From: Malacoraja senta
Taxonomy: Eukaryota
Length of the DNA stretch: 64,000 bases
Direction of reading: 5' to 3'
Assembly: GCA_038087875.1 (NCBI GenBank)
Contig: CM075995.1
Coordinates: forward strand, 4,342,001 to 4,406,000
Made by a program: the position numbers and the translations under genes. This document shows positions 2,136 to 53,351 of this stretch, in pieces (positions within the stretch are counted from its first letter, which is position 1; each line of letters opens with the position of its first letter). The notes beneath the pieces were generated by a model. That model saw nothing but the letters and a program-made list of their open reading frames with translations. It was not told the DNA's origin and ran no database searches.

Positions 2136-5100
2136 ATTTTACTTCGGAGTCACGTGAGTGATTACGTGAAGAAGACCCGTCAGACGCATTGGCGCTCACG
2201 GACGTGAGGTAGTGGAATGTAGTTTTTACAACTCCAAGGTAAGTAAAACACTTTTTGGGAGTTTTTTAGGTCCGTTTGCTGTGGTGGTCTGTTGCGATTT
2301 TTTCACAGGCGCCGTGAACAAAACGGGCACGGGCAAGAGGCGAGGCGCAAAGCCGATAGAGAGCCACAGGAATGCGGTTGGTGAAGGGCTGCCTCATACC
2401 CCTGTAACAGTCGCCGGCTGGGAGCGGGGCGACTGTGGACTTGTGTATTTAGAAAAAGAACGGAGCCAGCGTCAGTTGGGCGCTAGCCAACATGCAAGTC
2501 AGGTCCATGGAGCAAGAGTCAGTTTGGGATTCACCTCCAAGGCTGGATACCACTTTCTGAGTGGATATTCCAAATGGAGAACCTGTACACAGGTTGCTCC
2601 AACAAGACATACTCCAGGAGGAGTGATGTCAGAGCCAGGCTGCAGAATCCAGGTCAGCAGCACCTAGTAAAAAAAAATTGTGCATCCCAGTTTGGCAAAA
2701 GAATAAATCAGGGAAGGTAGTGCATCCGTGGATAACAAGGGAAATCAGGGATAGTATCAAAGCAAAAGATGAAGCGTACAAATTAGCCAGAAAAAGCAGC
2801 CGACTAGAGGACTGGGAGAAATTCAGAGACCAGCAGAGGAGGACAAAGGGCTCAATTAGGAAAGGGAAAATAGATTATGAAAGAAAACTGGCAGGCAACA
2901 TTAAAACTGACTGCAAAAGTTTTCATAGATATGTGAAGAGAAAGAGATTAGTTAAAACAAATGTAGGTCCCTTGCAGTCAGAAACAGGTGAATTGATCAT
3001 GGGGAACAAGGACATGGCGGACCAATTGAATAAGTACTTTGGTTTCGTCTTCACTAAGGAAGACATAAATAATCTGCCGGAAATAGCAGGGGACCGCGGG
3101 TCAAAGGAGATGGAGGAACTGAGTGAAATCCAGGTGAGCCGGGAAGTGGTGTTAGGCAAATTGAATGGATTAAAGGCCGATAAATCCCCAGGGCCAGATA
3201 GGCTGCATCCCAGAGTACTTAAGGAAGTAGCCCCAGAAATAGTGGATGCATTAGTGATAATTTTTCAAAACTCTTTAGATTCTGGAGTAGTTCCTGAGGA
3301 TTGGAGGGTAGCTAATGTAACACCTTTTTAAAAAGGGAGGGAGAGAGAAAACGGGGAATTACAGACCAGTTAGTCTAACATCGGTAGTGGGGAAACTGCT
3401 AGAGTCAGTTATTAAAGATGGAATAGCAGCACATTTGAAAAGTGGTGAAATCATTGGACAAAGTCAGCATGGATTTACGACAGGTAAATCATGTCTGAAG
3501 AATCTTATAGAATTTTTCGAGGATGTAACTAGTAGAGTGGATAGGGGAGAACCAGTGGATGTGTTATATCTGGACTTTCAGAAGGCTTTCGACAAGGTCC
3601 CACATAAGAGATTAGTATACAAATTTAAAGCACACGGTATTGGGGGTTCAGTATTGATGTGGATAGAGAACTGGCTGGCAAACAGGAAGCAAAGAGTAGG
3701 AGTAAACGGGTCCTTTTCAGAATGGTAGGCAGTGACTAGTGGGGTACCGCAAGGCTCAGTGCTGGGACCCCAGCTATTTACAATATATATTAATGATTTG
3801 GACGAGGGAATTGAATGCAACATCTCCAAGTTTGCGGTTGACACTAAGCTACGGGGCAGTGTTAGCTGTGAGGAGGTTGCTAGGAGGCTGCAAGGTGACT
3901 TGGATAGGCTGGGTGAGTGGGCAAATGCATGGCAGATGCAGTATAATGTGGATAAATGTGAGGTTATCCACTTTGGTGGCAAAAACAGAAAAGCAGACTA
4001 TTATCTAAATGGTGGCCGATTAGGAAAAGGGGAGATGCAACGAGACCTGGGTGTCATGGTACACCAGTCATTGAAAGTAGGCATGCAGGTGCAGCAGGCA
4101 GTGAAGAAAGCGAATGGTATGTTAGCATTCATAGCAAAAGGATTTGAGTATAGGAGCAGGGAAGTTCTACTGCAGTTACACAGGGTCTTGGTGAGACCAC
4201 ACCTGGAGTATTGCGTACAGTTTTGGTCTCCAAATCTGAGGAAGGACATTATTGCAATAGAGGGAGTGCATAGAAGGTTCACCAGACTGATTCCTGGGAT
4301 GTCAGGACTTTGATATGAAGAAAGACTGGATAAACTCAGCTTGTACTCGCTAGAATTTAGGAGATTGAGGGGGGATCTTATAGAAACTTACAAAATTCTT
4401 AAGGGGTTGGACAGGTTAGATGCAGGAAGATTGTTCCCGATGTTGGGGAAGTCCAGGACAAGGGGTCACAGCTTAAGGATAGAGGGGAAATCATTTAGGA
4501 CCGAGATGAGAAAAACTTTTTTCACACAGAGAGTGGTGAATCGCTGGAACTCTCTGCCACAGAGGGTAGTTGAGGCCAGTTCATTGGCTATATTTAAGAT
4601 GGAGTTAGATGTGGCCCTTGTGGCTAAAGGGATCAGGGGGTATGGAGAGAAGGCAGGTACGGGATACTGAGTTGGATGATCAGCCATGATCATATTGAAT
4701 GGCGGTGCAGGCTCGAAGGGCCGAATGGCCTACTCCTGCACCTATTTTCTATGTTTCTATGTTTCTAAAGAGCTGCTTGATAGCACCCTCATTGATGAGG
4801 CGCGTGCACAGGGTCAGCAGAGTTCTCCGATACAAGCGAAGACGGCAGCTGCCAGATGTTCTATTTCTGGCAGTACGATTCGCTGCTCTGTGAGAGTTCT
4901 GACCCTGACTCTGACGGTGAGGCCGATACAAGCGAAGACGGCAGCTGCCAGATGTTCTACTCCTGGCAGTACGATTCGCTGCCCCGTCAGAGTCAGGAGA
5001 GCCACTGGGAGAAGAAGTGGCCTCTACGATCAACTATTTTGTCTTCCATCAGCTCCAGTAGCTTACGATGGATGAAAATGCCAAAAAAGCACGAGACCCC

Positions 5101-9032: not shown

Positions 9033-9349
9033 ACCGCACGGTGGCACAGCGGTAGAGTTGCTGCCTTACAGCGTCAGAGACCCGGGTTTGATCCTGACTA
9101 CGGGTGTTGTCTGTATGGAGTTTGTACGTTCTCCTCGTGACCGGCGTGGGTTTTCTCCGGGATCTCCCGGTTTCCTCCTACACTCCAAAAATGCGCAGGT
9201 TTGTAGGTTAATTGGCTTGGTAAAAATTGTAAATTGTCCCTAGTGTGTGTAGGATAGTGTTAGTGTACAAGGATCGCTGGTCGGCCTGGACTCAGTGGAT
9301 TAGAGGACCTGTTTACGTGCTGTATCTCTAAACTAAACTACACTAAACT
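9033..9349 (+). mobile_element. tRNA-derived V-type (HE1-like) SINE
   Basis: GGTGGCACAGCGGTAGAG A-box, GGTTTGATCC B-box, V-like core (GGTTTCCTCCTACACTCCAAA) and (TAAAC)n tail. Similar copies at ~10497-10793(-), 17235-17530(-), 18976-19270(+), 22600-22900(+), 24604-24905(-), 25561-25840(+), 31157-31870(+, interrupted), 33765-34077(+), 42775-43060(+), 45705-45994(+). Confidence 0.85.
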
Positions 9350-9409
9350 ATTTGAATACACATAGTATACAGAACAAAGGAGAAGAGCTTGTAGCACAAT
9401 TAGAAATTC

Positions 9410-10380: not shown

Positions 10381-11126
10381 CCGTGGAGATCAGTCCCATC
10401 TGTTCACAATAGTGGTTTAGAAGAGCAGTTGCAAGAAGCATTTTCATTTTATCTTCAAACCTTGGCTTTGGATTAATATTGCTGTGGTGACCATTTCAGT
10501 TTAGTTTAGTTTAGAGATACAGCGCGGATAAACAGGCCCTTCGGTCCGCACTGACCAGCGATCCCCGCACACTAACACTATCCTACACAGACTAGGGACA
10601 ATTTACATTTATACCGAGCCAGTTAACCTGCAAACCTGCACGTCTTTAGAGTGTGGGAGGAAATGGAAGATCTCGGAGAAAGCCGCGCGGTCACGGCGAG
10701 AACGTACAAACTCCGTACAGACAGCACCCGTAGTCGGGATCGAACCCTGATCTCTGGCGCTGTAAGGCAGCAATTCTATGGCTGCGCCACCGTGATACCC
10801 ATTTCACTGCTCTCATTTTACATAATTATTTAAAGATTGTGGTTGTTATCACAATTCAAAGAGTCTGATCTCGTTTTTTGTGTCTATCTTCATGATAAAT
10901 GAACAGTCTACTAATTTCTAAGAGTCTGACCTCCAGTACTAGTACAAATGTTGAGACAATCCTTTACCTCGCCATGGTTGAATATGTTCCTTTAACAATG
11001 TATGAATCAGAAATTTAGCGTCTATTGAAATAACCTCAAATCCGCAAGAATTCACATCCCTGAGACTGAGGAAAACAGCTGCTTTTAGTATGACTCCTCA
11101 ATGAGAACATTATGTAGACGTTATAT

Positions 11127-12171
11127 TAGGTATGTTACAAAACTTACCTTCAGCGGCGCTGCAGTTCTGTCACTGCCTGTGTGCGCGACTTTGGCGCCTT
11201 TGAGAGGGGGGCGGGTTTAAAATGCCTTGTTTCTCCAACCTATTCAAATCGATGTCTGTTCAGGCTATTTAGCTGCTAAAGAATAATCGCTTCAACTGCC
11301 GTTTTATTAAGTTTCTTTTAAACTGCACTGGATATTTTACGAACAGGAGTAAATTAAAAATAATCTTGTATAGCCGTCAACGCCGACAACGGGGACGGAT
11401 TTCATGTACGGGACAGGTAAAGGTAAGCCGTTCATTTTATATATAAACTAGCTTCCAAGGATGCCTTTAATCAAAATTTCACGTTGCGAAAATGTAATTA
11501 TGTAAATATACGAGCCGGCAGTATTTTTCCTGCCGATATGAGGTTTAAATTCACCGCAAATGCAACGTTCCAAACCAGCGCGTTCCACAAAAACCCACTC
11601 GCAAGATGATTTAAATGGCCATTAATTTACGGGAATTAAACACTAAATTCCTTCCATTTGGCCTATAAATTAATGACAATGAGATTTTAAAATCATGTTA
11701 TATTGTGAATTATTGTGTGAATGTTATTTGAACACTTAGGCTATTTAAAAATGTTAACTTTTTCTTAAGAAATGGATAGATGTTTAGATCTAGTAATTGA
11801 ATTTTGTAATTAGCTACAATTGGGTAACTAACTAATTATATGCTATAATTTCAGGTCATCCAAGTAAGATTGTTTCACATTTGTTTCAGAATGCTTCAAT
11901 CTATAATAACTGAAAATTTCATTCAGTTCTCTTAATTTTTAAGAAAGTTATGGGCTTTTGACTGTCCTTGATCACAGCTTTTGTGTTAAGTCAATGGAAA
12001 AGCAATAGGGAACAAGATGCTAATTTCAGAGTATGTAAATGGCCATAACCTTTTTAATACTGAAGATATGAAAGTGAATTAGGTGTCAAATTAAACTTAT
12101 TTTTATGCTTTATCTGATGGGATAAATTGCAGACTTGATTTTTTAAATCTCAAGATTTTGTAACGCTAGTA
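11127..12171. mobile_element. Putative non-autonomous DNA transposon, unclassified (~1.05 kb)
   Basis: Short imperfect inverted ends TAGGTATGTTACAAAA ... TTTTGTAACGCTAGTA in an AT-rich target; no ORF; TSD unclear. Confidence 0.5.
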
Positions 12172-12224
12172 TATAGCGTACATATATATATATAAAGTAC
12201 ACATAATGTTCCCATGAGTGTATA

Positions 12225-13839
12225 CAGTGGCTTGCAAAAGTATTCATACCCCTTGAACTTTTCCACATTTTGTCACGTTACAACCACAAACGTAAATGTA
12301 TTTTATTGGGATTTTATGTGATAGACCAACACAAAGTGGCGCATAATTGTGAAGTGGAAGGCAAATGATACATGGTTTTCAAATTTTTTTACAAATAAAA
12401 AACTGAAAAGTGTGGCGTGCAAAAGTATTCAGCCCCCTTTACTCTGATATCCCTAAATAAATTCCAGTGCAACCAATTGCCTTCAGAAGTCACCTAATTA
12501 GTAAATAGAGTCCACTTGTGTGTAATCTAATCTCAGTATAAATACAGCTGTTCTGTGAAGGCCTCAGTGGTTTGTTAGAGAACATTAGTGAACAAACAGC
12601 ATGATGAAGCCCAAGGAACACACCAGACAGGTCAGGGATAAAGTTGTGGAGAAGTTTAAAGCAGGGTTAGGTTATAAAAAAATATCCCAAGCTTTGAACA
12701 TCTCACGGAGCACTGTTCAATCCATCATCCGAAAATGGAAAGAGTATGGCACAACTGCAAACCTACCAAGACATGGCCGTCCACCTAAACTGACAGGCCG
12801 GGCAAGGAGAGCATTGATCAGAGAAGCAGCCAAGAGGCCCATGGTAACTCTGGACGAGCTGCAGAGATCCACAGCTCGGGTGGGAGAATCTGTCCACAGG
12901 ACAACTATTAGTCGTGCACTCCACAAATCGGGCCTTTATGGAAGAGTGGCAAGAAGAAAGCCATTGTTGAAAAAAAACCATAAGAAGTCCCGTTTGCAGT
13001 TTGCCACAAGCCATGTGGGGGACACAGCAAACATGTGGAGGAAGGTGCTCTGGTTAGATGAGACCAAAATGGAAGTTTTTGGCCTAAATGCAAAACGCTA
13101 TGTGTGGCGGAAAACTAACACTGCACATCACCCTGAACACACCATCCCCACTGTGAAACATGGTGGTGGCAGCATCGTGCTGTGGGGATGCTTTTCTTCA
13201 GCAGGGACAGGGAAGCTGGTCAGAGTTGATGGGAAGATGGATGGAGCCAAATACAGGGCAATCTTGGAAGAAAACCTGTTAGAGTCTGCAAAAGAATTGA
13301 GACTGGGGCGGAGGTTCACCTTCCAGCAGGACAACGACCCTAAACATACAGCCAGAGCTACAATGGAATGGTTTAGATCAAAGCATATTCATGTGTTAGA
13401 ATGGCCCAGTCAAAGTCCAGACCTAAATCCAATTGAGAATCTCTGGCAAGACTTGAAAATTGCTGTTCACAGACGCTCTCCATCCAATCTGACTGAGCTT
13501 GAGCTATTTTGCAAAGAAAAATGGGCAAAAAATTCAGTCTCTAGAAGTGCAAAGCTGGTAGAGACATACCCCAAAAGACTTGCAGCTGTAATTGCAGCGA
13601 ATGGTGGTTCTACAAAGTATTGACTCGGGGGGGCTGAATACTTTTGCACGCCACTCTTCAGTTTTTTATTTGTAAAAAAATTTGAAAACCATGTATCATT
13701 TTCCTTCCACTTCACAATTATGCACCACTTTATGTTGGTCTATCACATAAAATCCCAATAAAATACATTTACGTTTGTGGTTGTAACGTGACAAAATGTG
13801 GAAAAGTTCAAGGGGTATGAATACTTTTGCAAGCCACTG
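12225..13839 (+). mobile_element. Full-length Tc1/mariner transposon (IR/DR type, DD34E), 1615 bp
   Basis: TA TSDs at 12223-12224 and 13840-13841. About 210-bp near-identical TIRs starting CAGTGGCTTGCAAAAGTATTCA, each with outer and inner direct repeats (TGCAAAAGTATTCA). Confidence 0.97.
12601..13623 (+). CDS. Tc1-family transposase, 340 aa, uninterrupted
   Basis: Paired-like HTH with GRPPK linker, ARRKPLL, WLDETK, QQDNDPKH and SPDLNPIENLW; 34 residues between the second D and the E. Confidence 0.96.
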   Translation: MMKPKEHTRQVRDKVVEKFKAGLGYKKISQALNISRSTVQSIIRKWKEYGTTANLPRHGRPPKLTGRARRALIREAAKRPMVTLDELQRSTARVGESVHRTTISRALHKSGLYGRVARRKPLLKKNHKKSRLQFATSHVGDTANMWRKVLWLDETKMEVFGLNAKRYVWRKTNTAHHPEHTIPTVKHGGGSIVLWGCFSSAGTGKLVRVDGKMDGAKYRAILEENLLESAKELRLGRRFTFQQDNDPKHTARATMEWFRSKHIHVLEWPSQSPDLNPIENLWQDLKIAVHRRSPSNLTELELFCKEKWAKNSVSRSAKLVETYPKRLAAVIAANGGSTKY

Positions 13840-14018
13840 TATATATATACACGTCTGAAAAAGGGTCTTGACCCAAAACTTCACCCAGAGATGCTGCCTG
13901 TCCCGCAGATTTACTCCAGCTTTTCGTGTCTATCTACGGTTTAAACCAGCATCTGCAGTTCCTTCCCACACGCATATATATATATTTTTTACATGTGTGT
14001 GCATATGTGTATGTGTAT

Positions 14019-15411
14019 CAGGCACGTGCCATGCGTAATTACTCCGGGTAGGTAGTCAGTCGGCTTTTTTTTAAATATCTTAAACCGCGCATGCGTAGAT
14101 TATTCTCCTCTCCATAAAAATAAAAAATAAAAATAAGTAACAATTCAATTTGCCCAAGGCTTCCAAATCTCCTTCATTTTGTATTACTGAATGGGTGGGG
14201 ATGGAGGATGAAGGCAGGTGGAGAGATGGTGGGAAAAACGGGAGCACACCGGGACAAGTTGAATCAGTTGTCATCTTATTGAATGACAATACTTGTTCAA
14301 GGGACCAAGTGGGGGGAGAGTTCCTTTCACAGCTTGTGGGAAGTCTGGCCAGGGGTTAAAGTTGCGGGGAGGGCAGGAGCATTGAGAAGGAGGGGGTCAG
14401 GGATCATGCCAGTAACCCACACACTCACCGCTGCCGTGGCGCTCTGGGCACGGAGACACCACATTATGGCCGGGGAAGGAAGCAGCTCGGGTGGCTGCGA
14501 GCGGCCGTCGGGACCTCAGCGCTTTCTGCCGAAGCGCGTACCTCTGGCAGTGCTCTCCATCTGAACATCTCTCACCTGCTTCGCTCATGTCAGCCGCTTC
14601 CCGCAAATCCTTACATTCCGACAGCCGAGTAACCTCAGTTGGTCCCTTGATCGCGCAGTCGGAATTTAAGGATTTGCAGGAAGCGGTTGACATGAGCGAG
14701 GCCGGCGAGCGGCAGGAGAGAAGTTTTCAGATGGAGAGCACTGCCAGAGGTGAGCGGGGGCCGGCAGAAGGGGCTGTCCGGTCCAGGCGGCCGCTCACAG
14801 CCACCCAAGCTAATTCACTCCCCGGCCACAATGCGGTAGCTCCGTGCCCGGAGCGTCGCAAGTGGGTTACTGGCATGATCCCCGACCCCCTCCTTCACAA
14901 CGCTCCTGCCCTCCACGCAACTTTACCCCGGGCCAGACTCCCCAAACGCTGTGAAAGGAGCTCTCTCCCCCCCCCCCCGGGAAATACGGTATTTAAAAAC
15001 ATATAGCACCATGAGATTTTCCTACCACATCATTTGTACACAAACTCCATTCTTCTCTCTTTGTTTGTTAAGATATTCTTAGGATAATGACAATCTATAT
15101 TTTAAAAACCCGCCAAGAAACTTGCGCTGCGCATGCGCAGTACTGCAAAGGCAGAATTTCAGCTGCCTTCAGCTCCCCTTGAAATTGACGGCTTGAAGCA
15201 GCGCCGATGGCACGTGGGCTGCACAGACCTTCGTGTGTTGCAAGTACTGCGCATGAAAGGCACGGAGAATTATGCCTACCTAAGAGATCGATCTCTTATG
15301 TAGGCATAATTCTCCCATGCCTTTACTATATATATATTTAATAATTACCATTTTATAATTTTAATCAGGGTAGGCAGTGCCTACCTTTCCTACCCTGACG
15401 GCACATGCCTG
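14019..15411. mobile_element. Non-autonomous hAT-type transposon with long internal palindrome
   Basis: TIRs CAGGCACGTGCC / GGCACATGCCTG; exact 8-bp TSD ATGTGTAT (14011-14018, 15412-15419); no transposase ORF. Confidence 0.88.
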
Positions 15412-15501
15412 ATGTGTATATATATATACACACACTGAACCATTTTTCTCATTTATAATATTGTTTACAGTGTACTATGTTTACATATTCTGTTGTGCTG
15501 C

Positions 15502-15909
15502 CTTCTCCGTGGATAGCCACCTTGTCGTGGTGGAGAAGCTTGTGTGGACCTGCGATCCTGAGAACGATGCCGTCTGGAGCTATGCTCCTGGTAGGGCCAC
15601 TCATGGGGTATGGTCGAGGGGGAGGTCCCTGACAAAGAGCAATCCAACCAAGACCTCAATGGTGGAACAGGCAGAGGATGATGGCTAACTATAGTGAAGC
15701 GTCACAACGGCTGGGAAGGCGGATGAAGGCTGCAGCAGAAAGGGTTCCCGGTCGTCTTGGACTCCATGCAACTGGATCCTGACCCAGATCTGTCAAGGAC
15801 CGTGTGGTGGCTGTCTGTGCACCAGTCTCCCCACGTTAAACAAAGTCATGCACAGGCGTACTCCCAAAAGAGGACAGTCATACTTGTTTTGAGTGACCGC
15901 CGATGATGA
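15502..15909 (+). mobile_element. Short non-autonomous RTE-clade (Expander/Rex3-like) retroelement
   Basis: 5' part CACCTTGTCGTGGTGGAG...GAGCTATGCTCCTGGTAGGG...GACAAAGAGCA resembles RTE 5'UTRs as recalled; (GAT)n tail; TSD TGTGCTGC on both sides. Confidence 0.7.
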
Positions 15910-15923
15910 TGTGCTGCTGCAAG

Positions 15924-16735
15924 TAAATGTGAGGTTATCCACTTTGGTGGCAAAAACAGGAAAGCAGACTATCTAAATGGTGGCTGATTAGGAAATGGGG
16001 AGATGCAGCGAGACCTGGGTGTCATGGTACACCAGTCATTGAAAGTAGGCATGCAGGTGCAGCAGGCAGTGAAGAAAGCGAATGGTATGTTAGCTTTCAT
16101 AGCAAAAGGATTTGAGTATAGGAGCAGGGAGGTTCTACTGCAGTTGTACAGGGTCTTGGTGAGACCACACCTGGAGTATTGCGTACAGTTTTGGTCTCCA
16201 AATCTGAGGAAGGACATTATAGCCATAGAGGGAGTGCAGAGAAGGTTCACCAGACTGATTCCTGGGATGTCAGGACTTTCATATGAAGAAAGACTGGATA
16301 GACTTGGCTTATACTCGCTAGAATTTAGGAGATTGAGAGGGGATCTTATAGAAACGTACAAAATTCTTATGGGGTTGGACAGGCTAGATGCAGGAAGATT
16401 GTTCCCGATGTTGGGGAAGTCCAGGACAAGGGGTCACAGCTTAAGGATAAGGGGGAAATCCTTTAAGACCGAGATGAGGAAAAACTTTTTCACACAGAGA
16501 GTGGTGAATCTCTGGAACTCTCTGCCACAGAGGGTAGTTGAGGCCAGTTCATTGGCTATATTTAAGAGGGAGTTAGATGTGGCCCTTGTGGCTAAAGGGA
16601 TCAGGGGGTATGGAGAGAAGGCAGGTACGGGATACTGAGTTGGATGATCAGCCATGATCATATTGAATGACGGTGCAGGCTCGAAGGGCCGAATGGCCTA
16701 CTCCTGCACCTATTTTCTATGTATCTATGTATCTA
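15924..16735 (+). mobile_element. Young CR1 LINE 3' fragment
   Basis: Open 211-aa ORF2 C-terminus (16003-16638), 3'UTR and tail; nearly identical to 37343-37876(-). Confidence 0.95.
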
Positions 16736-19309
16736 ATTGTTCTATCTGGGATATATGGCAATAAAACACTCTTGACTCATCTCTTGACACTGGCCACTAA
16801 ACTTCAGTTGAAGAATACCAGCAATTATCCTGCCCTACACAGCTGGTATTCCCAGCAAGTTACTCACCTGCGTATATTATCCATTCCCAAGAAGATTAAT
16901 CTATTAGCTATTTCCAGACAGCTAGATTAATTTAAGAGTTTAAACCAGAATTTGGCAGCCAAGCAGTTTAGCGCAAAAGGTATTTCACTCAAGTTAAAAT
17001 AAATTGCTGCAATTTAAAAAAAAAAACAGGGCATAAAGATAGGGGTTGGGAAAGCTTTAAGCCTGTTAGTAAAATGACCCATTTATTTCTACACTAGAAG
17101 TGATAAATGAAGGGCACGACCCGAAACGTCACCCATTCCTTCTCTCCAGAGATGCTGCCTGTACCGCAAGTTACTCCAGCTTTTTGTGTCTATCTTCATG
17201 ATAAATGAACAGTTCTTACTAATTGCCTTCAAGCTTTAGACTTTAGCAATACAGCACAGAAACAGGGTCTTTGGCCCACCGAGTCCGCCCTGACCAGCAA
17301 TCAACCCACACACTAACACAATCCACACACTAGGGGCAATTTTAGAATTTTACCAAAGCCAATGAACCTACAAGCCTGTACATCTTTGGAGTGTGGGAGG
17401 AAACCGGAGCACCCAGAGAAAACCCACGCAGGTCACGGGGAAAACGTACAAACTCGATACAGACAGCACCCGTAGTGAGGATCGAACCCATGTCTCAGGC
17501 ACTGTAAAGTAGCAACTCTACCACTGTGTCTCACCTAATGTAGGCAGAACTGCTGTTCAACGATGAACTACAATGGCTACAGTATTCACCACGATTCCAG
17601 CTTCACAATGGTATCACTTTAGTGCACGGCAACCAAGCAACCTTCACACAAACTTCTGTCTCCAAAACAAATGACCAAGAGGCATTTGGGCTTTCCTTTT
17701 CATGAGACACTTTCCTCTATCCCCATCTCTGTCTGCCAGAAGTATCCAGAAGGCCACAAATCTGTGTCAAATGTTCAAACCTGACAGGTAATCCATTTTC
17801 ACTCCTCTCTAGAGAGAAAAAAAATAACGTCTCGTGTTAAGTTCTGCCTGAACTACCTCCTCCGGCAGCTCGTTCCACGCAAAGTGTGGTACGTTTATGA
17901 AAGGAGCTGCCAGAGGAGGTAGTTGAGGTAGGTACTATAGCTATGTTTAAGAAACATTCTGACAGGTACATGGATAGGTCAGGTTTAGAGGGATATGGGC
18001 CAAATGCAGGCAGGTGGGACTGGTGTAGATGGGACTTGTTGACCAGTGTGGACAAATTGAGCCAAGGGGCCTGTTTCCACGCTGTATGCTTCTTTAAGTG
18101 GCAGTGACTTCAGTCAGTTCAGTTACAGGAAAATTGGCGTCAACAAATTTTCAAATGTTTCAGAAACCAATTTCTTCCCACAATTGATGACGGACACAAA
18201 AAGCTGGAGTAACTCAGCGGGTCAGACAGCATCTCTGGAGGAAAGAAATAGGTGACGTTTAGAGTCGAGAACTTGCTTCAGACAGAGTCAGGGGAAAGGG
18301 AAACGAGAGATAGAGATGGTGAAATAGAGATATTAAACAAACGAATGAAATATAGGCAAACAAGTAACAATGACAAAGAAAACAGGCCATTGTTAACTGT
18401 GGGCTCGGTGAAAACGAGTTATAGACAATGAAACTCAACAGACACTAAAACGTTAAAACTGGTACAATGACTGGCGTCGGGGAGGGACAGAGAGAGAGGG
18501 GATGCAAGTTAGAGAAATCAATATTATCACAAAAAGCTTCCCACCATCACTTGTTTTGTGATGGCTGAGGATAGTGACTTACAATTAAAGGTCTAATTGA
18601 AATAAGTTCAATGTGAGTGTTTTATCAAATCCAAGACGCCAAGACCTGCACCAATGGATTTCTGTGACATTTCTTTACTCAAATCAATAGGAAAGCGCTC
18701 CTTTTACAGGTCCCAAAGTTATAGACACAAAGTGCTGGAGTAACTCAGCGGGTCGGGCAGCATCTCTGGAGACAAATGATGGGTAGGATGGGTGACATTT
18801 CGGGTCGGGACCTTTCTTCAGACTGAAAGTAGGGGGTGGGGGAGGTAAAGAGCTGGAGGTAAGAAAAGACCAGGACCAATCAGGGCAATCCACAAATGAC
18901 CTCAGGCAAGGTGTTGCCTGGTAAGTCCATTGTTAGATAGGGAAGGTGTGATCTCAAGAGAAACAACATGGAGGGTGGCAGGGTGGCGCACCATTAGATT
19001 TGCTGCCTTACAGCACCCGAGACCTGGGTTCAATCCTGACTACAGGTGCTTGTCTGTACATTCTCCCTGTGACCTGTGTGGGTTTTCCCCGGGTGCTCCG
19101 GTTTCCTCCCACACACCAAAGACGTACAGTTTTGGCTTGGTAAATTTGTAAATTGTCCCTAGTGTGTGTAGTATAGTGTTAATGTGCAGGCATTGCTGGT
19201 CGGCGAGGACGCGGTGGGCCAAAGGGCCTGTTTCCGCGCTGTATCTCTAAACTACAACTCAACTAAACCGTAGAACTAGTAAAAACAACTAGGAAAGAGA
19301 AGTGGGAAA

Positions 19310-20927: not shown

Positions 20928-21770
20928 AAATCAAATCAAATCAAATCAAATCAAAAACTTTATTTGCCACTTGTGCTTACACACATAGGAATTCTTGTGC
21001 GGTTGTTCAGAGAGTCAAGTCAAGTCAAGTTAAAAAGACACACAGAAAAACACATAATCTATAAACTATAAACACATATACTATGATATGTAATGAGGTG
21101 GGTCAGGACATCAGTTCATTTTGTTTTGGCCAAGAGTCTCACTGTGGCAGGGAAGAAGCTCTTGAAAAAGCGTGTTCTGTTTGTGGCGATGCTGTCCGCT
21201 CGTCTGTGCCTGAGGTTGTATGTGCAGTTTTTGTGTTTGAGCAGGGAGTGAGCTGGATGTAGTGTGTCTCTGATGATTCTCTCTGCTCTTTTTTGACAGC
21301 GCTGTGTGTAGATTGTTTCCATGGAGGGAAGTTCCGTTCTGATAATCCTCTCTGCAGTCTTTATGACTCTTTGCAGAGCCTTCCTCTCTGTCTGTGTGGT
21401 GTTTCCATACCACACCGTAATGCCTGTGGTGAGGATGCTCTCTATCAGTCCTTTGTAGACCTGGGTGAGAGGGCGACAGTGCAGACCAGCTTTTCGGAGC
21501 AGCCAGATGAAGTACAGTCTCTGCTGGGCTTTTTTCACTGTTGCGGCAGTGTTCAAAGTCCATTTCAGATCTGATGTTACATGTAATCCCAGGTATCTGT
21601 AACTGTCAGCCCTCTCCACCACAGTCCCCTTGATGATGAGGGGCTGCAGGGGGGGTGGATTTTTTCTGAAGTCCATTATTATTTCTCTTGTCTTGTCTGT
21701 GTTGAGGCTCGGGTCGTTCACCTCACCATAGGCAAGAATGTCATTCACCAGATTCCTGTAGAAATGTTCT
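20928..21770 (-). mobile_element. Rex1/Babar-like LINE 3' fragment
   Basis: ORF 21116-21748 LNTDKTREIIMDFRK...YRYLGLHV...KKAQQRLYF...IESILT...SFFPATVRLL; (TTTGA)n tail. Confidence 0.85.
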
Positions 21771-26538: not shown

Positions 26539-29500
26539 ATTTTACTTCGGAGTCACGTGAGTGATTCCGTGAAGAAGCTCGCCAGTGCGCATGCGCGTCA
26601 TTACGTCTAGCGCATTGCGCAACGACTGACTGGCAGGCGTGCTGCTCCTTCCAGCGGTAAGTTTAAACCTGCAGGTAAGTTTTACAACTTATTTCCAGGT
26701 TTTGTTTTTTGTCTTGCAGGAAGCTCTGTTATGGAGTTTGCCTGCTGGATTCAATTTCGGGGCGAAGTCTGGACGGGCCGCGGGGAAACCGGCTATGGAC
26801 TGTGGGGAGATCCCGGTTCGGACCGCGGAAGCGCGGGTAGCCGGCGGCCGTTGGGTTCGCTACCTAAGTCGCTGACAATGGGGTCAGCGGCTCCCAGACC
26901 GCTATGGTGCCCCAGAAAGGGGGTAAAACCAGGAGGAAGTCGGTCAGACCTTTGGACTCGGAAGAGTCAGGCCAGGAGGGTTCCCCTCCTTCAATGGGTA
27001 GCGTCTGCGGACGTCTAAACCCACATGGAGCACCTGATCGAGAGGTTGCTCCACAATGATACTCCAAAGGAGGGAGTTATCAGCGCGGGTCTCCTCGGGG
27101 GCCCGTGGCAGCGGCACCTGTTTCAGGTCTGCACAATGTCTCCCTCTCTGAGGAGGGAAGCATTCGGGGTCAGTTTCTGTCCGACTCAGAGCAAAAATTC
27201 TGATATAGGTCCGTAGGAGGAGCCGCATCAGCGCAGGTATCCTCAGGGGCCTGCGGCAGCACCTGTTTCAGGGCTGCCTACGAATCTCACTCTCAGTGGA
27301 GGGGAGTGCGAGTGGTCAGTGTGTAACTGACTTCAAATTCGAAAGTATGTCCGTGGAACATACTGGAGCACATCCATATGGCTCCAAGGAAATACTCGCA
27401 AACGAAAGGGTTACTGCCGGAAGAGTTGGTTCCAGCCGTTGGCAGAAAACCCAGAAGGGGCCAGAGTTCCCCTCAAGGTACAAGTGCCGGCAGTGAACAG
27501 CGCTATCAGGGGTGACATTGGAGGCAAGAAATCCAGGAAATGAAACCAGCCGCCGAATCTTCTCTTCAGATAAGACTTATCCAACAAGTATACCTGGATG
27601 AGGAAGCAAAAGCTGTCGGACTGATCAAGGTACCAACGACGAACAAAGCCTCATCGTTTCGGCGACGACACACCCCATGCCTCATCGGCAGTAAGCAGTT
27701 CACTGAAGCTGGTGGCAGCTTGAAAGCTGGGCAGAGGTCTTTCAGGCCAAGGTCCAAGCCGGTCTCAGCAAATATGGAATCCACACACCCTACCAGTCCA
27801 ACTCTCCAATCAAGGACGGGAATAGAACCCACATCAGGGGCCTTTGGGCTCACCATAAGACCACCGGTAACCATGGAGGTAGGTGGGTCTGGTTCTTCCG
27901 AAACATGGGGTATGTGGACCATTTACAAGTTGGTAATATTTACACTTGTTTTTTGTACAAATGACAATGATAACATGAGATTCAGATCCGTTTATAAACT
28001 AAAATGATAACATGTGATTGGTTTATTTTGCACAGTATACAAGGGTTCCAAGCATGGCTTGGAATTGGGGCCAGAGTTGTATTTCGAGGCAGGCAAAGTA
28101 TTACGGCCAGGATTGCCTTCCGAGACAAGCTCGAAAATATGGCCAGCGTGGTCTTTCGAGGCAGGCTCAGAATTATGGCCGGAGTTGTCTTTCAAGGCAG
28201 GCCCAGTATTATGGCCAGAGTTGTCTTTCGAGGCAGGCTCAGTATTATGGCCAGAATTACCTTTCGAGACAGGCTCGGGAATCTGGTCAGAGTTGTCGTT
28301 CGAGGCAGGCACGGAATTATGGCAGGCGTGGCCTGTTCATTGTGAACGATGGAGGATGTTGGTTCATCCTTGATTTAACTCGCATGTACAACATAGACTT
28401 TTCAGAATATGGAACTTTGCTACTGTTAAACAACTGATTTCCATTCTCAGGGATCACTGGAGACATTTGAAATTTATCTGGATGGGGCAATGATAACAGT
28501 TAAAACGTTGCAAAATGGGCTAACTTCTGCTCCCAGGTTCTTTACCAAATTAGTAAACCGGTGCTTGGACTGCCAAAAGCTCAAAAACACTTGTTCTGGT
28601 TTACCTGGATGATATTCTAAACGCTGTATGTTGCTAAAATCAACTGTTTCAGCCGCAAACTATAATTGAGAAATTGAGGTTCCTCATCCATCCAGTTAAA
28701 TTTAAGTTGATACCAACTAGTGTTATTGATTATTGGGATTTACCTTTAATTATTAATTTGTCTGTGACTCCGCCCTGGGGCAAGAGATTGGAAACAATAG
28801 AAGCCTGTATGAAGCAGCCTTTATTCATCAAGTGTAATTGGCAATATAGCAGCTGTGTTTCAGCTGTGCAAATTGGGCCTTTGCATTATCAGAACTTACA
28901 ACGTGCAAAGTAGTAACCTCTCAGGTGCCATGTAGGTCATTGTTAACAGACCTATACTATTACCAGCTGAAGCTACCAAAGTCACAATGGTGGACGAACA
29001 GTATTCAGCATTGCTCCAGTGGTTTTGGTCACTAAATCTTCAGTTATATTACAAACTGATGCTAGTGATCAAAGATGGAAAATTATGAATGCCATCTCTA
29101 GTCACGGAGGCAGATGGGATTTGCATGAGTTACCAATTCTTCAGTTATTGGTATCAACTACCTATAGACACTATGTGCATTATATGGGTTAAAGGGTTAT
29201 TGTGCGAATATGCATAATTTGCATGCTCAATTCCAAGTTGATACACTGTGGTGGTGCCATATGTTAGTCACATGGGTGCAATCAAGTCAAAGTATCCTGT
29301 CATATTTACCTAACCTCATTTGGCGCTGGTGTATCATCACATAAAATCAATGACAACACAGAATAGATGTTGGATCACAAAGTATTTTATGACATTATGG
29401 CTCGATGGAACACCGAATATCGATATGTTTGCATCCAGGCTCATTCACCGGTTGCAAAAATATGTGGCATCACAGTGGCGAGAGATTCATTCTCGCTACA

Positions 29501-32674: not shown

Positions 32675-33565
32675 CAAGTCAAGTCAAGTTTATTCGTCAC
32701 ATACACATACGAGATGTGCAGTGAAATGAAAAGGGCGATTGTGCAAAAACAAAACAACAAACAAACAAACTACAACAGAATGGAAGAATAGAATCACATA
32801 TTCTTTTACATATTAAATATTGTGGGCGGAAGGAAAAAGGGGAAAAAAAACAGGGGAAAAACAAAAAACAGCAATTTTTTTTAAACAGTAGAGTGGTCCA
32901 GTAAAGTTAGTCCCTGGTGAGATAGGTGTTTACAGGCCTCTGGGAAGAAACTCCTTCTCAACCTCTCTGTTCTCACAGCATGGTAACGGAGGCGTTTGCC
33001 TGACCGTAGCAGCTGGAACAGTCCGTTGCAGGGGTGGAAGGGGTCTCCCATGATCTTATTGCCTCTGGAGTTGCACCTCCTGATGTATAGTTCCTGCAGA
33101 GGGGCGAGTGAAGTTTCCATTGTGCGTTCGGCCGAACGCACTACTCTCTGCAGAGCCTTTTTGTCCTGGGCAGAGCAATTCCCAAACCAGATTGTAATAT
33201 TTCCGGACAAGATGCTTTCCACAGCCGCTGAGTAAAAGCACTGGAGGATCTTCGGAGACACTCTGAATTTCCTCAATTGCCTGAGGTGGTAAAGGCGCTG
33301 CCTTGCCTTACTCACCAGTGCTGCAGCGTGTGATGTCCATGTCATATCCTCAGAGATGTGGACTCCCAGGTATTTAAAACAGCTCACCCTATCCACAGTT
33401 TCCCCATTTATCCTCGTGTGTACGTTCTCGGATGATGTGCCCTCCTAAAGTCCACGATCAGCTCCTTAGTTTTTTTGATGTTCAAGAGGAGGCTGTTGTC
33501 CTGACACCAGAGTGCCAGATCAGCCACCTCCTCCCGGTAGGCCTTCTCATCGTTGTCTGAGTTAG
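32675..33565 (-). mobile_element. Rex1/Babar-like LINE 3' fragment
   Basis: ORF 32881-33396 FKYLGVHISEDMTW...KARQRLYHLRQLRKF...ERLRRSFFP; (CTTGA)n tail. Confidence 0.85.
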
Positions 33566-35839
33566 AACAGCTTGTGTATTATGAGGGAAATTGGTTGTGC
33601 TCCATGAATAAATTCTGAAATATATTGGTTTTGGGTCTTTCGTATATGCGAGAGTATTACAATTCTTTTTCAAGTTAATCTTTAAAATTCACCCACGATG
33701 GTCTTTTTTACTTGGATGAAATTAGGCTTGAATGTTGCTTTAAACCATTATATATCAATGACTGGGTGGCACGGTGGCATGGTGGTAGAGCTACTGCCTT
33801 ACAGCTCCAGAGTCCCAGGTTTGATCGTGACCGCGAGTGCTTGTCTGTACGGAGTTTGTATGTTCTCCCCATGATCTGCATGGGTTTTCTCCGAGATCTT
33901 CGGTTTCCTCCCACACTCCAAAGACGTACAGGTTTGTAGGTTAATTGTCTTGGCATGAATGTAAAATTGTCCCTAGTGTGTGTCGGGTAGTGTTAGTGTA
34001 CGGGAATCGCTGGTCGGCCTGGACTCGGATGGATCAAAGGGCCTGTTTCCACGCTGTATCTCTAAACTAAACTAAACTGTCAACTTTGACATTATTCCAA
34101 CTTTGTATGTCCCATTATTGAAATACTCCAAATGAGAACTACAATTTAAATAATAGTTCATTTATTACATTATTGTCGTGTATATCTAGATACAGAGCAA
34201 TCATTTGTTTTGCATTCATTCCAGTAAAGGCATATTATTCATAAGCACAATCATACATTAGTTAAATAGGTTAACTTTTAGTTAAATTTTTAGTGCAACT
34301 AAAAATATGAGGTCCCAAATAACTCCTGGTTACTGCAACCAGCAATTAGTTAGTCTCAACTAACTAATTTGATTCGTCAAAATAAGGACTCAGTGAGAAG
34401 TTGTACCATTTGTAGCACTCTTCTTCCATCCCCTTAACTTGCTTTGTGACTATGGATCGATGATCCACGATCTTAAAACACATCTTGCCACCACACGATT
34501 ACTCAACCTTTTTCCTACCACTTTGGCACCAATAGTATCAAAAAGGGTGGTGGGTGTATGGAGCAAGCTGCCAGAGGAGGTAATTGAAGCTGGGACTATC
34601 CCAACATTTAAGAAACAAATGGACACGTACATGGAGAGGACAAATTTGTAGGAATATGGACCAAACGCAGGCAGGTGAGACTAGTGTAGCTGGGACACGT
34701 GGGACGGTGTGGGGAAGTTGGGCCGAAGGGCCTGTTTCCACACTGCATCGCTCTATAACTCAATGAAAATGGGGTCTCCCGCATGTGTAATATGCAAAAT
34801 GAATTTCGCTGTGCAGTTGCATAGGTGATAAATAAAACACTATTGAACTACTGTTTCATTTGTGGAATAGAGCATGGCATGGATCGTTTCCCAATGTCAT
34901 CCGAATAAAAACATTTAACAAGTCTGCATCAAACTACTTATTCTTCTAATGGAACCATCTAAAGTGAGCACATTACTCCTGCACAAATTTTCTCCTGAAA
35001 ACAACTATTCTTGTTCAAATATCAAGCTCACAAAGAATTTGCACTTTGCAAATCACTGGTATTCGACACTTCGAGGATGAGATACGCCACTTGTTTTTGG
35101 AAAACTCCATTCATCGCTCAACCCGACACAAAATTTACAATTTCTATTACAAATGCTTGGTTAAAATGTATGAACTAACCTAATAAGTTGGTGAAATTTC
35201 CATTCATCAGCAAGTTTCCCCAATATGTTGAACAAGTGCTATCATAAGGTCATCAGCGATAGGAACAGAATTAGGCCATTCGGCCCATCAAGTCCACTCC
35301 ACCATTCAATCATGCCTGATCTATCTCTCCCTCCTAACCCCATTCTCCTGCCTTCTCCCCGTAACCTCCGACACCCCTAATGCCTATCAACATTAAGCAT
35401 GCCATTTACATACTAAATTGATACATTTAGATTATTATTATCAATATAACCCGCAGAATGTTTTATTTTCCATATTCCAAATAGATATTATAATATTGTT
35501 GTTGGATACATTTTGTTATGCCAGAATTTTTGACCTGTAAGTTAATTTTAAAAGGATATTTTCCAGTTTTTAATTTCTGTTGCAGAGTTTCGAGATGAAA
35601 GGCTACAAGTGCCAGTTTGCAATCACGTACATGCTTTACAATTATATTTTGAGATTAATTGGTAGCTTGGCCTTCTATTTTAATCCTAATCACCACAAAG
35701 TGAAATTACAGGGTACAGAAGCACTTCAAAGGCCAGTTCTTGAATAAAGCAGTAATTTTAAAACATCCATTTCCGCAATATATAAGAAGCCTAAACATTA
35801 ATCACAGCTATTACTGAAGTGGGTACTTTCGAGTCATAG

Positions 35840-37342: not shown

Positions 37343-37876
37343 TAGAAACATAGAAACATAGAAAATAGGTGCAGGAGTAGGCCATTCGGCCCTTCGAGCC
37401 TGCACCGCCATTCAATATGATCATGGCTGATCATCCAACTCAGTATCACGTATCTGCCTTCTCTCCATACCCCCTGATCCCCTTAGCCACAAGGGCCACA
37501 TCTAACTCCCTCTTAAATATAGCCAATGAACTGGCCTCAACTACCCTCTGTGGCAGAGAGTTCCAGAGATTCACCACTCTCTGTGTGAAAAAGTTTTTCC
37601 TCATCTCGGTCTTAAAGGATTTCCCCCTTATCCTTAAGCTGTGACCCCTTGTCCTGGACTTCCCCAACATCGGGAACAATCTTCCTGCATCTAGCCTGTC
37701 CAACCCCATAAGAATTTTGTACGTTTCTATAAGATCCCCTCTCAATCTCCTAAATTCTAGCGAGTATAAGCCAAGTCTATCCAGTCTTTCTTCATATGAA
37801 AGTCCTGACATCCCAGGAATCAGTCTGGTGAACCTTCTCTGCACTCCCTCTATGGCTATAATGTCCTTCCTCAGAT
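37343..37876 (-). mobile_element. Young CR1 3' fragment nested in an older CR1
   Basis: Protein identical to that of 16003-16638 over most of the shared span; (TATGTTTC)n tail. Confidence 0.92.
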
Positions 37877-38059
37877 TATCCACCTGTGACACCGCATTCA
37901 CGGATTTATGCACATGCACTCCGAGATCCCTCTGCTTCACATCACGACCCAGAGCCCTACTCATGAGAAACTACAATGGTTATCCATGTGAGGAGCTGCA
38001 GGAGATGAGCAAGGTCTTCAATGACTATTTCACCTCTTTTACTGCGGAGAAAGACATGA

Positions 38060-47342: not shown

Positions 47343-47726
47343 AAACAGGAAAGTAGACTATTATCTGAATGGTGGCCGATTAGGAAAAGGGGAGATGCAA
47401 CGAGACCTGGGTGTCATGGTACACCAGTCATTGAAAGTAGGCATGCAGGTGCAGCAGGCAATGAAGAAAGCGAATGGTATGTTAGCATTCATAGCAAAAA
47501 GATTTGAGTATAAGAGCAGGGAGGTTCTACTGCAGTTGTACAGGGTCTTGGTGAGACCACACCTGGAGTATTGCGTACAGTTTTGGTCTCCTAACCTGAG
47601 GAAAGACATTCTTGCCATAGAGGGAGTACAGAGAAGGTTCACCAGACTGATTCCTGGGATGGCAGGACTTTCATATGAAGAAAGACTGGATAGACTCGGC
47701 TTGTACTCGCTAAAATTTAGAAGATT
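47343..47726 (+). mobile_element. Young CR1 fragment running into the assembly gap
   Basis: ORF from 47395 is almost identical to the other young CR1 copies. Confidence 0.9.
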
Positions 47727-47926
47727 NNNNNNNNNNNNNNNNNNNNNNNNNNNNNNNNNNNNNNNNNNNNNNNNNNNNNNNNNNNNNNNNNNNNNNNNNN
47801 NNNNNNNNNNNNNNNNNNNNNNNNNNNNNNNNNNNNNNNNNNNNNNNNNNNNNNNNNNNNNNNNNNNNNNNNNNNNNNNNNNNNNNNNNNNNNNNNNNNN
47901 NNNNNNNNNNNNNNNNNNNNNNNNNN
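47727..47926. other. Assembly gap (200 N)
   Basis: Run of N; contiguity across it is unverified. Confidence 1.
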
Positions 47927-51508: not shown

Positions 51509-53351
51509 AAGGGCTCATGGGCTGGTGCAGGGAGCAAGGATTTAGATTTATAGACCACTGGGATCTCTTCTGGGGTAGGGGTGACCTGTACAAAAGGGAC
51601 AGGTTACACCTTAACTGGAGGGTGACCGACATTCTGGCAGGCAGGTTTGCTAGGGCTACACGTGTGGGTTTAAACTAAATAGTGGGGGGGAGGGATTGAC
51701 AAATTGGGAGTATAAAGATGGAGTTGAAGGGGAAGTGACTACAGGAAATATTACAAAAGATTCTTGATTTAATGGGAAGGAAAGCTCGAGAAGGGACAAC
51801 AGCGTAAGGTCAGGGCCAATTGCGAGCGGTGCGAGGGGGGAAGTGAATACAGAGGTCAAAGTGCTGTATATGAATGCGCGAAGTATAAGGAATAAAGTGG
51901 ACGAGCTTGAGGCTCAGTTAGAAACTGGCAAGTATGATGTTGTGGGAATTACTGAGACATGGCTGCAAGAGGGCCAGGGAACTGAATAATCAAGGATATA
52001 TACAGGGGGGCAGAGGGGGTGGGGTTGCCCTGTTGGTGAGGAATGAAATTCAGTCCCTTGCAAGGGGTGACATTGAAACAGGAGATGTGGAGTCAGTATG
52101 GATAGAACTAAGGAATTGTAAGGGAAAAAAACCCTAATGGGACTAATCTACAGGCCCCCAAACAGTAGGTTGGACATAGGGCGCAAGAATCAGGAGTTAA
52201 AATTGGCATGTAGCAAAAGTATTGCAGTGGTTTTTATGGGAGATTTCAACATGCAGGTAGACTGGGAAAATCAGGTTGGTACTGAACCCCAAGAAAGGGA
52301 CTTTGTAGAGTGCCTTTATGACGGGTTCTTAGAACAGCTTGTATTGGAGCCTACCAGGGAGAAGGCAATTCTGGATTTAGAGTTATGTAATGAACCGGAT
52401 TTGATAAAAGACCTCGAGGTTAATGAGTCATTAGGAGGCAGGTTTAATCTACAATTGGAGAGGGAGAAGGATGGATTGGAGGTGTCAGTGTCGCAGTTGA
52501 CTAAAGGGGACTATGGGGCCATGAGGGAGGAGCTGGCCAAAGTTGACTGGAAAGATACACTAGCAGGGATGAAAGTGGAACAAAAATGGCAGGTGTTTCT
52601 AGGAATAATACAGAAGGTGCAGGATCAGTTCATTCCTAGGAGGAAGAAAGATTCCAAGGGGCGAAAGGGACGACCATGGCTGACAAGGGACGTCAGGGAC
52701 AGTATAAAAATTAAAGCGAAGATGTACAACGTAGTAAAGATGAGCGGGAAGCAAGAGAATTGGGTAATGTTTAAAGAACAACAGAAGATAACCAAAAAGA
52801 CAATACGGGAAGAAAAGATGAGGTACGAAGGTAAGCTAGCCAAGAATATAAAGCAGGATGGTAAAAGCTTCTTTCAGTATGTGAAGGGAAAAAAATTAGT
52901 TAAGACCAAAGATGGACCCGTGAAGACCGAAAAATGTGAATTTATTATGGGGAACAAGGAAATGGCAGATGAGTTGAACAGATACTTTGGATCTATCTTC
53001 ACTAAGGAGGACACAAACAATCTTCCTGATATAGTAGTGGCCAGAGGATCTGGGGACGGAGGAACTGAAGGAAATCCACATTAGGCAGGAAATGGTGTTG
53101 GATAGACTGATGGGACTGAAGGCTGATAAATCCCCAGGGCCTGATGGTCTGCATCCCAGGGTACTTAAGGAAGTGGCTCCAGAAATTGTGGATGCATTGT
53201 TGATGTTCCAATGTTCTATCGACCCAGGATGTAGGCTAATGTTATCCCACTTTTTAAGAAAGGCGGAAGAGAGAAAACAGGGAATTATAGACCAGTTAGC
53301 CTGACATCGGTGGTGGGGAAGATGCTGGAGTCAGTTATAAAAGATGAGATA

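What the first reader, a model, noticed from the sequence alone, without database searches (positions are those of the whole stretch)
12225..13839. Intact Tc1 transposon resembling teleost/amphibian Passport-type elements: recent activity or horizontal-transfer candidate
This is the only uninterrupted TE ORF of full length in the window. It has 340 aa, an intact DD34E triad, TA TSDs and ~210-bp TIRs differing at only a few positions. The protein (MKPKEHTRQVRDKVVEKFKAGLGYKKISQALNI...) closely resembles Passport-like fish and frog Tc1s as I recall them, which is unexpected for vertical descent if the host is a chondrichthyan. A few atypical residues (WLDETK instead of WSDETK, AANGG instead of AAKGG) may impair this copy.
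Basis: partly seen in the sequence, partly recalled or inferred. Interest (0 to 1): 0.7.

Follow-up and report, generated by a model that had tools for sequence, protein, structure and literature searches.

The report
Skate jumping gene shared with amphibians
A complete but ageing copy of a known kind of cut-and-paste jumping gene sits in what looks like a skate genome, and an almost identical version turns up in an amphibian sample, so it most likely crossed between these very distant animals instead of being inherited.

Summary
Confirmed: a 1,615-bp DD34E Tc1 element with TA target duplications, 213-bp IR/DR terminal repeats and an open 340-codon transposase frame, amid batoid (probably skate) repeats. 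It is in the Passport-like family but is not Passport (84–85% aa). It is not pristine: 11 residues differ from the family-type protein P0190, four of them seen in 0 of 114–124 homologues. About 1.2% decay gives roughly 8–19 My at shark rates, so this copy is probably impaired.

Horizontal transfer is well supported. A run labelled 'amphibian metagenome' holds the whole element in thousands of contigs but none of the flanks or CR1 (12 of 30 bins). It lies about 2% (at most about 4.5%) from the skate-type element, whereas vertical descent over 473 My predicts dS of at least 0.58. Direction and vector are unknown, and the amphibian host rests on a run label.

Fish–frog and chimaera Tc1 transfers are published; my 10 paper searches found no skate case for this family. 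The scan noted a similar Sleeping Beauty-type case in a devil ray. New member of a known kind.

The parts
12223..12224 (+). left TA target-site duplication
   Evidence: sequence
12225..12437 (+). left terminal inverted repeat (213 bp), IR/DR type
12227..12254 (+). outer direct repeat of left TIR (inferred transposase-binding site)
   Evidence: family D1; function inferred from SB/Passport
12412..12439 (+). inner direct repeat of left TIR (inferred transposase-binding site)
   Evidence: family D1, 89% to outer repeat
12601..13623 (+). transposase ORF, 340 codons (family start is the second ATG at 12604, 339 aa): paired-like HTH domains (1-52, 69-139), DDE domain (149-300), triad D153/D244/E279
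13629..13839 (-). right terminal inverted repeat (211 bp) with inner (13629-13655) and outer (13812-13838) direct repeats and an AATAAA at 13757
13840..13841 (+). right TA target-site duplication, start of a (TA)5 run
   Evidence: sequence

Best explanation
A full-length copy of a multi-copy Passport-like DD34E Tc1 family in a batoid, probably skate, genome. Mechanism, inferred from SB and Passport: the transposase binds the paired direct repeats in each 213-bp TIR with its N-terminal HTH domains, excises the element with the DD34E site and inserts it at TA, duplicating it. The lineage entered skates by horizontal transfer from, or through a vector shared with, bony vertebrates, and then amplified. 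This copy has decayed neutrally for roughly 8-19 My; its protein is probably weak or dead, while its ends may still be mobilisable in trans. Shown: anatomy, family placement, multi-copy presence in two runs with the window's repeat set, presence without those repeats in a run labelled amphibian. Inferred: host names, age, impairment, transfer, direction.
For: Host: 14 of 16 hits of a window CR1 ORF are named chondrichthyans, best Leucoraja erinacea 78%. Resident family: X21 and X3 cover 30 of 30 bins, element, flanks and CR1. Outside skates: X16 ('amphibian metagenome' RNA) lays 6,855 contigs (1,540 at 99% or more, 2,551 at 95-99%) on the 12 bins of the element, TIRs included, with depth 0 in the 18 flank and CR1 bins, although CR1 is about 10-25 times deeper than the element in X21 and X3. 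Distance: X16 holds 0.39 of 150 sampled 31-mers against about 0.70 expected for the family master, i.e. about 2% extra difference; ceiling 72 variable places of 1,615 (4.5%), which includes the copy's own changes. Vertical expectation: dS 0.58-1.05 even if both lineages ran at whale/zebra-shark rates for 473 My. Tree: window plus four unnamed proteins (100/96) lie inside a 31-row clade (100/99) whose named rows are all bony vertebrates, sister to plaice Passport. Patchiness: TcMar is 3.28% in skates, 2.30% in rays, 0.14% in sharks, 0.03% in chimaera (PMC12361510, passages). Decay: 11 residues differ from P0190; L152, N311, S316 and N334 occur in 0 of 114-124 homologues; terminal branch 0.034 against 0 for P0190.
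Against: The amphibian host rests on a run label; the signal could come from another animal in that sample. No assembled amphibian copy or named protein above 95.4% to P0190 was found. The 2% figure is indirect (word shares from pooled contigs; 40 of 258 difference rows shown). No host-gene dS was computed; no Pfam host-gene hit among 21 other ORFs scanned. Skate identity rests on one CR1 search. The age uses shark, not skate, rates. Only 4 of 24 runs were laid. Transposase activity was not tested.
Confidence: 0.85

Rival explanations
1. Horizontal transfer into skates is real, but the near-identical sequence in the 'amphibian' run comes from another animal (prey, parasite, cross-library contamination from a teleost); the partner is a bony fish and no amphibian is involved.
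For: X16 is a metagenome-labelled RNA run. The closest named proteins are pangasiid catfish (92-95% to P0190). Ray-finned fishes take part in 93.7% of vertebrate transfers (PMC7070016, passages).
Against: X16 shows 19-87 distinct contigs at the fixed sites, like the 42-86 of X21, which points to a high-copy family of a dominant genome; a second run of that study holds a similar share, 0.36. Family members are known from Xenopus and Rana (PMC2651795).
Confidence: 0.2
2. The family, or this copy, is currently active in the skate.
For: Open frame, intact triad and direct repeats. Full-length family-type proteins exist (P0190-P0192, P0196). Native Passport is active (PMC2651795).
Against: About 19 private changes (1.2%), TIRs 2.8% apart, and changes at S152, M193, E307, I311, C316 and K334, residues shared even with SB100X. 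No empty-site joint among the 15 of 194 joints shown (inconclusive). P0190 and P0191 may be assembler-collapsed averages, not single copies.
Confidence: 0.15
3. Vertical inheritance from the jawed-vertebrate ancestor with strong conservation or slow evolution.
For: Sharks evolve slowly (PMC10587355 and PMC13100897, passages). Clark et al. read the Eagle/Glan distribution as vertical.
Against: About 2-4.5% total difference including non-coding TIRs against dS of at least 0.58. [quoted passage not shown] TcMar is scarce in sharks and chimaera.
Confidence: 0.03
4. Assembly artefact: a foreign Tc1 contig joined into skate sequence.
For: No single laid contig spans the stretch. The window holds a 200-N gap elsewhere (47727-47926).
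Against: Clean TA junctions on both sides; the family is abundant in two runs that also carry the flanking repeats and CR1; composition is not anomalous.
Confidence: 0.02

Closest known systems
Passport/PPTN of Pleuronectes platessa (CAB51371, CAB51372; Clark et al. 2009, PMC2651795, parts 2-4 of 5 read)
   Same: DD34E Tc1, about 1.6 kb (1,626 vs 1,615 bp), 339-aa transposase, TA target, ITRs with repeated units; 84-85% aa (87% for P0190); sister in the tree.
   Different: Below the 98-99% DNA identity of flatfish Passport copies; the N-terminal DNA-binding domain is of the Xenopus/tilapia/trout type; host is a batoid; this copy has 11 private substitutions and is untested.
Eagle/Glan subfamily of the Passport-like family (Xenopus tropicalis, trout, pufferfish, medaka; named in PMC2651795)
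   Same: Falls in the clade holding Xenopus, Oreochromis, Polypterus, Pygocentrus and Oncorhynchus proteins (80-90% aa); terminal repeat resembles the trout-type loci L001/L004.
   Different: A distinct sub-clade (P4, R147, V159) about 9% aa from the Xenopus/tilapia type; Ks 0.53-0.55 to trout-type loci. No reference Eagle or Glan sequence was obtained, so the name is inferred from host species and tree shape.
ZB-like Tc1 in Callorhinchus milii (Jia et al. 2022, PMC9777934; passages, part 3, parts of the supplement)
   Same: A DD34E Tc1 of 1,612 bp with a 340-aa ORF and 201-203-bp TIRs in a chondrichthyan, shared with bony fishes and lampreys.
   Different: Different family (its coding start reads unlike this ORF) and a chimaera host; Ambrad and Leueri labels had 0 hits in the supplement text held (the main spreadsheet could not be read).
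Sleeping Beauty SB100X (PDB 5CR4)
   Same: Same catalytic domain and triad alignment (E 3.7e-84); IR/DR ends.
   Different: A more distant, separate subfamily; SB was rebuilt from dead salmonid copies.

Membership tests
DD34E/Tc1 | D-D-34-E catalytic triad in a DDE_3 domain | tested here: met
   D153, D244, E279
DD34E/Tc1 | paired-like HTH DNA-binding N-terminus, about 340 aa single ORF | tested here: met
   HTH_SB 1-52, HTH_Tnp_Tc3_2 69-139
DD34E/Tc1 | TIRs beginning CAGTG and TA target duplication | tested here: met
IR/DR group (SB, Passport, Frog Prince type) | about 200-250-bp TIRs each with an outer and inner direct repeat | tested here: met
   213/211 bp, 27-28-nt repeats. The group definition is recalled.
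Passport-like family | transposase groups with plaice Passport | tested here: met
   33-row clade with CAB51371/2, support 100/97; midpoint root, no SB or Tc1 outgroup
Passport-like family | >80% nucleotide identity to Passport DNA | not testable with these tools
   no Passport DNA was fetched; 84-85% aa
Passport sensu stricto | 98-99% identity to flatfish PPTN | tested here: not met
   84-85% aa; criterion from PMC2651795
Eagle/Glan subfamily | diagnostic DNA-binding-domain residues and ITR of Clark et al. Fig. 5 | tested here: inconclusive
   figure not held; clade membership with Xenopus and trout proteins only
active autonomous element | transposase catalyses excision and integration | not testable with these tools
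   four substitutions unseen in 114-124 homologues argue against
horizontal transposon transfer (Zhang et al. 2020 criterion) | TE Ks below 99.5% of orthologue Ks between hosts split >120 My | tested here: inconclusive
   orthologue distribution not computable; proxy: about 2-4.5% total difference against at least 0.58 expected

The most novel reading that the evidence does not exclude
One Tc1 subfamily moved within the last roughly 10-20 My among skates, an amphibian lineage and possibly further hosts, with more than one entry into skates: at 12973 the window, X21 and X16 read A while X3 and the single X18 contig read C. If such transfers seeded the Tc1/mariner bursts that set skates and rays apart from sharks, then at least the youngest burst is imported and far younger than the batoid body plan it has been proposed to shape (PMC12361510).
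Probability: 0.3. Interest if true: 0.6.

Novelty: new member of a known kind. Interest (0 to 1): 0.4.

Why it matters
Large vertebrate transfer surveys had no batoid: Zhang et al. 2020 list Callorhinchus and Rhincodon with 0 hits for Leucoraja or Rajiformes, and Muller et al. 2025 gave 0 hits for five chondrichthyan names. A marine, slowly evolving skate sharing a roughly 98%-identical element with an amphibian sample adds a link to the fish-frog Tc1 exchange network and offers a source and a date for part of the skate/ray TcMar expansion. Slow host evolution also preserves near-intact copies, a possible source of native transposon tools. The phenomenon itself is common and published.

Tried and rejected
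No whole genome is held, so copy number, divergence landscape and orthologous empty sites could not be computed. Exact look-up of the window protein: not in the collection. Viral contigs: 7 pattern matches, 0 relatives, so no viral vector seen. Metagenome contigs: 39 loci of 203 matches, none near-identical; L008, L023, L027 and L031 are decayed copies of a sister, Pangasius-like subfamily (Ks 0.09-0.14, Ka/Ks 0.6-1.2) with flanks unlike the window's repeats and host unknown, so not counted as proof. Search of shorter proteins: 120 of 1,725 listed, no named chondrichthyan and none above 94%. Insertion polymorphism: no 12224-to-13842 joint among 15 of 194 joints shown; inconclusive. X18 (organism D) covers only the element at about 96% (47 differences in 1,237 letters over five pieces), but with 34 shallow contigs and an unknown host, which could be a non-skate ray; a hint only. 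Excess of non-synonymous change (10 of 10 listed) is not significant (P 0.08). The sigma-70 promoter scan is irrelevant to a vertebrate and was disregarded. Identity with the published chimaera ZB-like element was rejected. Kuraku et al. 2012 found their lamprey-teleost Tc1 absent from cartilaginous fish (PMC3516227, passages); I did not compare its sequence. No structure prediction was run.

Full report
Observation. The element runs from 12225 to 13839 (1,615 bp) between TA dinucleotides. Its TIRs (213 and 211 bp) are 97.2% identical, and each holds an outer and an inner 27-28-nt direct repeat. The ORF at 12601-13623 encodes 340 residues with HTH_SB, HTH_Tnp_Tc3_2 and DDE_3 domains. D153, D244 and E279 align with the SB100X catalytic domain and give DD34E. 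There is no second copy in the window, and the other TE ORFs are LINE fragments.

Host. No genome is held. A CR1 ORF of the window (52137-53084) gave 16 hits, 14 named chondrichthyans, best Leucoraja erinacea at 78%, then the stingray Hypanus at 72-73%. The host is a batoid, probably a skate (inference from one search).

Family. The transposase search found 757 proteins at E 1e-100 or better among 8,000 candidates; the 120 listed have named hosts among teleosts, bichir, gar, sturgeons, paddlefish and frogs (plus one E. coli-labelled entry and one with an added ferret label), and no chondrichthyan. That absence is weak because TE frames are seldom annotated. Identities to the window protein: four unnamed proteins 96-97% (P0190, P0191, P0192, P0196), pangasiid catfish 90-92%, tilapia and Xenopus 88-90%, plaice Passport 84-85%. 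CAB51371 is labelled Passport in the supplement of PMC9777934. In a 49-row tree, chosen by me from the hits, the window and the four unnamed proteins form a clade (100/96) inside a 31-row clade (100/99) whose named rows are all bony vertebrates, with Passport as sister (100/97; midpoint root). It is therefore a member of the Passport-like family, probably on the Eagle/Glan side of Clark et al. (PMC2651795, parts 2-4 read), and not Passport itself.

State of this copy. It differs from P0190 at 11 residues plus an extra first Met. L152, N311, S316 and N334 occur in 0 of 114-124 aligned homologues; S152, M193, E307, I311, C316 and K334 are the residues of SB100X too. In the laid runs, 13 listed sites show another letter at 96% or more in X21 and X3, and also in X16 and X18 (56% in X16 at 12855, 48% in X18 at 12603, about 100% elsewhere); 40 of 258 difference rows were shown. 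Ten of the 13 lie in codons 85-334 and all ten change the residue; this fits neutral decay (P 0.08). Adding codon 157 and five TIR differences gives 19 sites (1.2%), which would spare 0.70 of 31-mers, close to the 0.59-0.73 seen in the best runs, so the list is nearly complete. Whale shark-zebra shark dS of 0.061-0.111 over about 50 My (PMC13100897, passages) gives 0.6-1.1e-9 per site per year and an insertion age of about 8-19 My; faster skate rates would shorten it. The copy is old enough to be called decayed, and its protein is probably impaired (inference, untested).

Horizontal transfer. Twenty-four runs in 13 studies hold the element or part of it; I laid 4 on 11900-16300 at 88% likeness. 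X21 (organism E) and X3 (organism A) cover 30 of 30 bins, including flanking repeats and CR1, so they share the window's repeat set and carry the family in many copies. X16, labelled 'amphibian metagenome', lays 6,855 contigs on the 12 bins of the element, both TIRs included, and nothing on the other 18 bins, where CR1 is about 10-25 times deeper than the element in the DNA runs. Skate contamination is thus unlikely. X16 has its own near-fixed letters (12412, 12457, 12561, 12930). Its word share of 0.39 against a ceiling of 0.70-0.73 implies about 2% difference from the skate-type master; the 72 places with 25% or more of another letter set a ceiling of 4.5% that includes the copy's own changes and more distant subfamilies. 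With a 473-My split (time tree in the supplement of PMC7070016) vertical descent predicts dS 0.58-1.05 even at shark rates on both branches. Trout-type loci give Ks 0.53-0.55 with Ka/Ks 0.2, the purifying pattern that Zhang et al. link to transfer, and decayed sister-subfamily loci of unknown host give Ks 0.09-0.14. TcMar makes up 3.28% of skate, 2.30% of ray, 0.14% of shark and 0.03% of chimaera genomes (PMC12361510, passages; 'horizontal' occurs 0 times in its main text). Nesting among bony-vertebrate elements and scarcity in sharks favour entry into batoids; whether skate and amphibian exchanged it directly or through a third host is unknown. No viral carrier was found.

Against and open. 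The amphibian host is a run label; no amphibian assembly was examined. The distance is estimated from word shares of pooled contigs. No host-gene dS was measured. X18 is shallow and its host unknown. No empty site was seen, but only 15 of 194 joints were shown. At 12973 the window, X21 and X16 read A, X3 and the one X18 contig read C, matching the K/Q125 split between P0190 and P0191; this may mark two entries or lineage-specific sorting.

Comparison with what is known. Transfer within this family between salmonids and Rana frogs is stated in PMC2651795 (citing Leaver 2001, not read). Zhang et al. 2020 report 975 vertebrate transfers, mostly Tc1/mariner in ray-finned fishes, with two chondrichthyans and no batoid found in their lists (passages and supplements). 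Jia et al. 2022 report a ZB-like Tc1 in Callorhinchus, another family (main spreadsheet unreadable, so a skate entry there cannot be excluded). Muller et al. 2025 gave no chondrichthyan hits. Ten searches found no paper on this family in skates; subscription journals and Repbase/Dfam were not searchable, and the family may be catalogued there. This scan earlier noted a Sleeping Beauty-type transfer in a devil ray (e1-7808042, not checked here); look-ups by sequence and place found nothing.

Verdict. A real, complete but decayed Passport-like Tc1 copy in a probable skate, with good evidence (about 85%) of horizontal transfer within the last few tens of millions of years at most, and an amphibian sample as the closest non-skate holder found. 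New host and subfamily of a well-known phenomenon; interest 0.4.

Noticed in passing
window 14019-15415: About 1.4-kb fold-back element: nested inverted arms 14311-14625 and 14655-14970 (83-93% complementary), outer arms 13995-14030 and 15400-15435, set among TA runs; folds as one long hairpin (-420 kcal/mol as DNA, no shuffle control); multi-copy in X21 and X3. Probably a non-autonomous DNA transposon.
   Followed up: partly
window 11101-12215: Stretch with 26-nt inverted arms (85%) ending 10 bp left of the Tc1; depth in X21 is 3-4 times that of the Tc1. Probable high-copy non-autonomous DNA element.
   Followed up: partly
window 9036-9350 and at least nine other places (e.g. 10495-10807, 17235-17528, 33769-34078): About 300-bp dispersed repeat, 70-87% alike between copies, SINE-like.
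   Followed up: no
window 3953-4768, 15924-16736, 37343-37877, 47343-47726: Young CR1 3' ends, 94-99% alike, beside older CR1 subfamilies.
   Followed up: partly
window 53650-56017: Fragmented LINE ORF2 of another, AT-rich type (RVT_1 at 54511-55251); L1/Tx1-like by recall.
   Followed up: no
window 21116-21748 and 32881-33396, minus strand: Two ORFs hitting Pfam ALKBH8_N; by recall this model matches the C-terminus of Rex1/Babar-type LINEs, not a host gene.
   Followed up: no
window 49817-51508 and 60812-62522: Inverted duplication of about 1.7 kb, 86% identical, next to GC-rich low-complexity arrays.
   Followed up: no
window 28062-28323: 36-bp tandem array, 7.3 copies, inside an open frame of 139 codons with no Pfam hit.
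   Followed up: partly
protein P0062: A 339-aa vertebrate-type Tc1 transposase (66% to the query) labelled Escherichia coli IS630 family; probably contamination or a vector.
   Followed up: no
proteins P0276, P0334: Fragments about 90% identical to P0190 from the lizard Phrynocephalus forsythii: the family also reached squamates.
   Followed up: no
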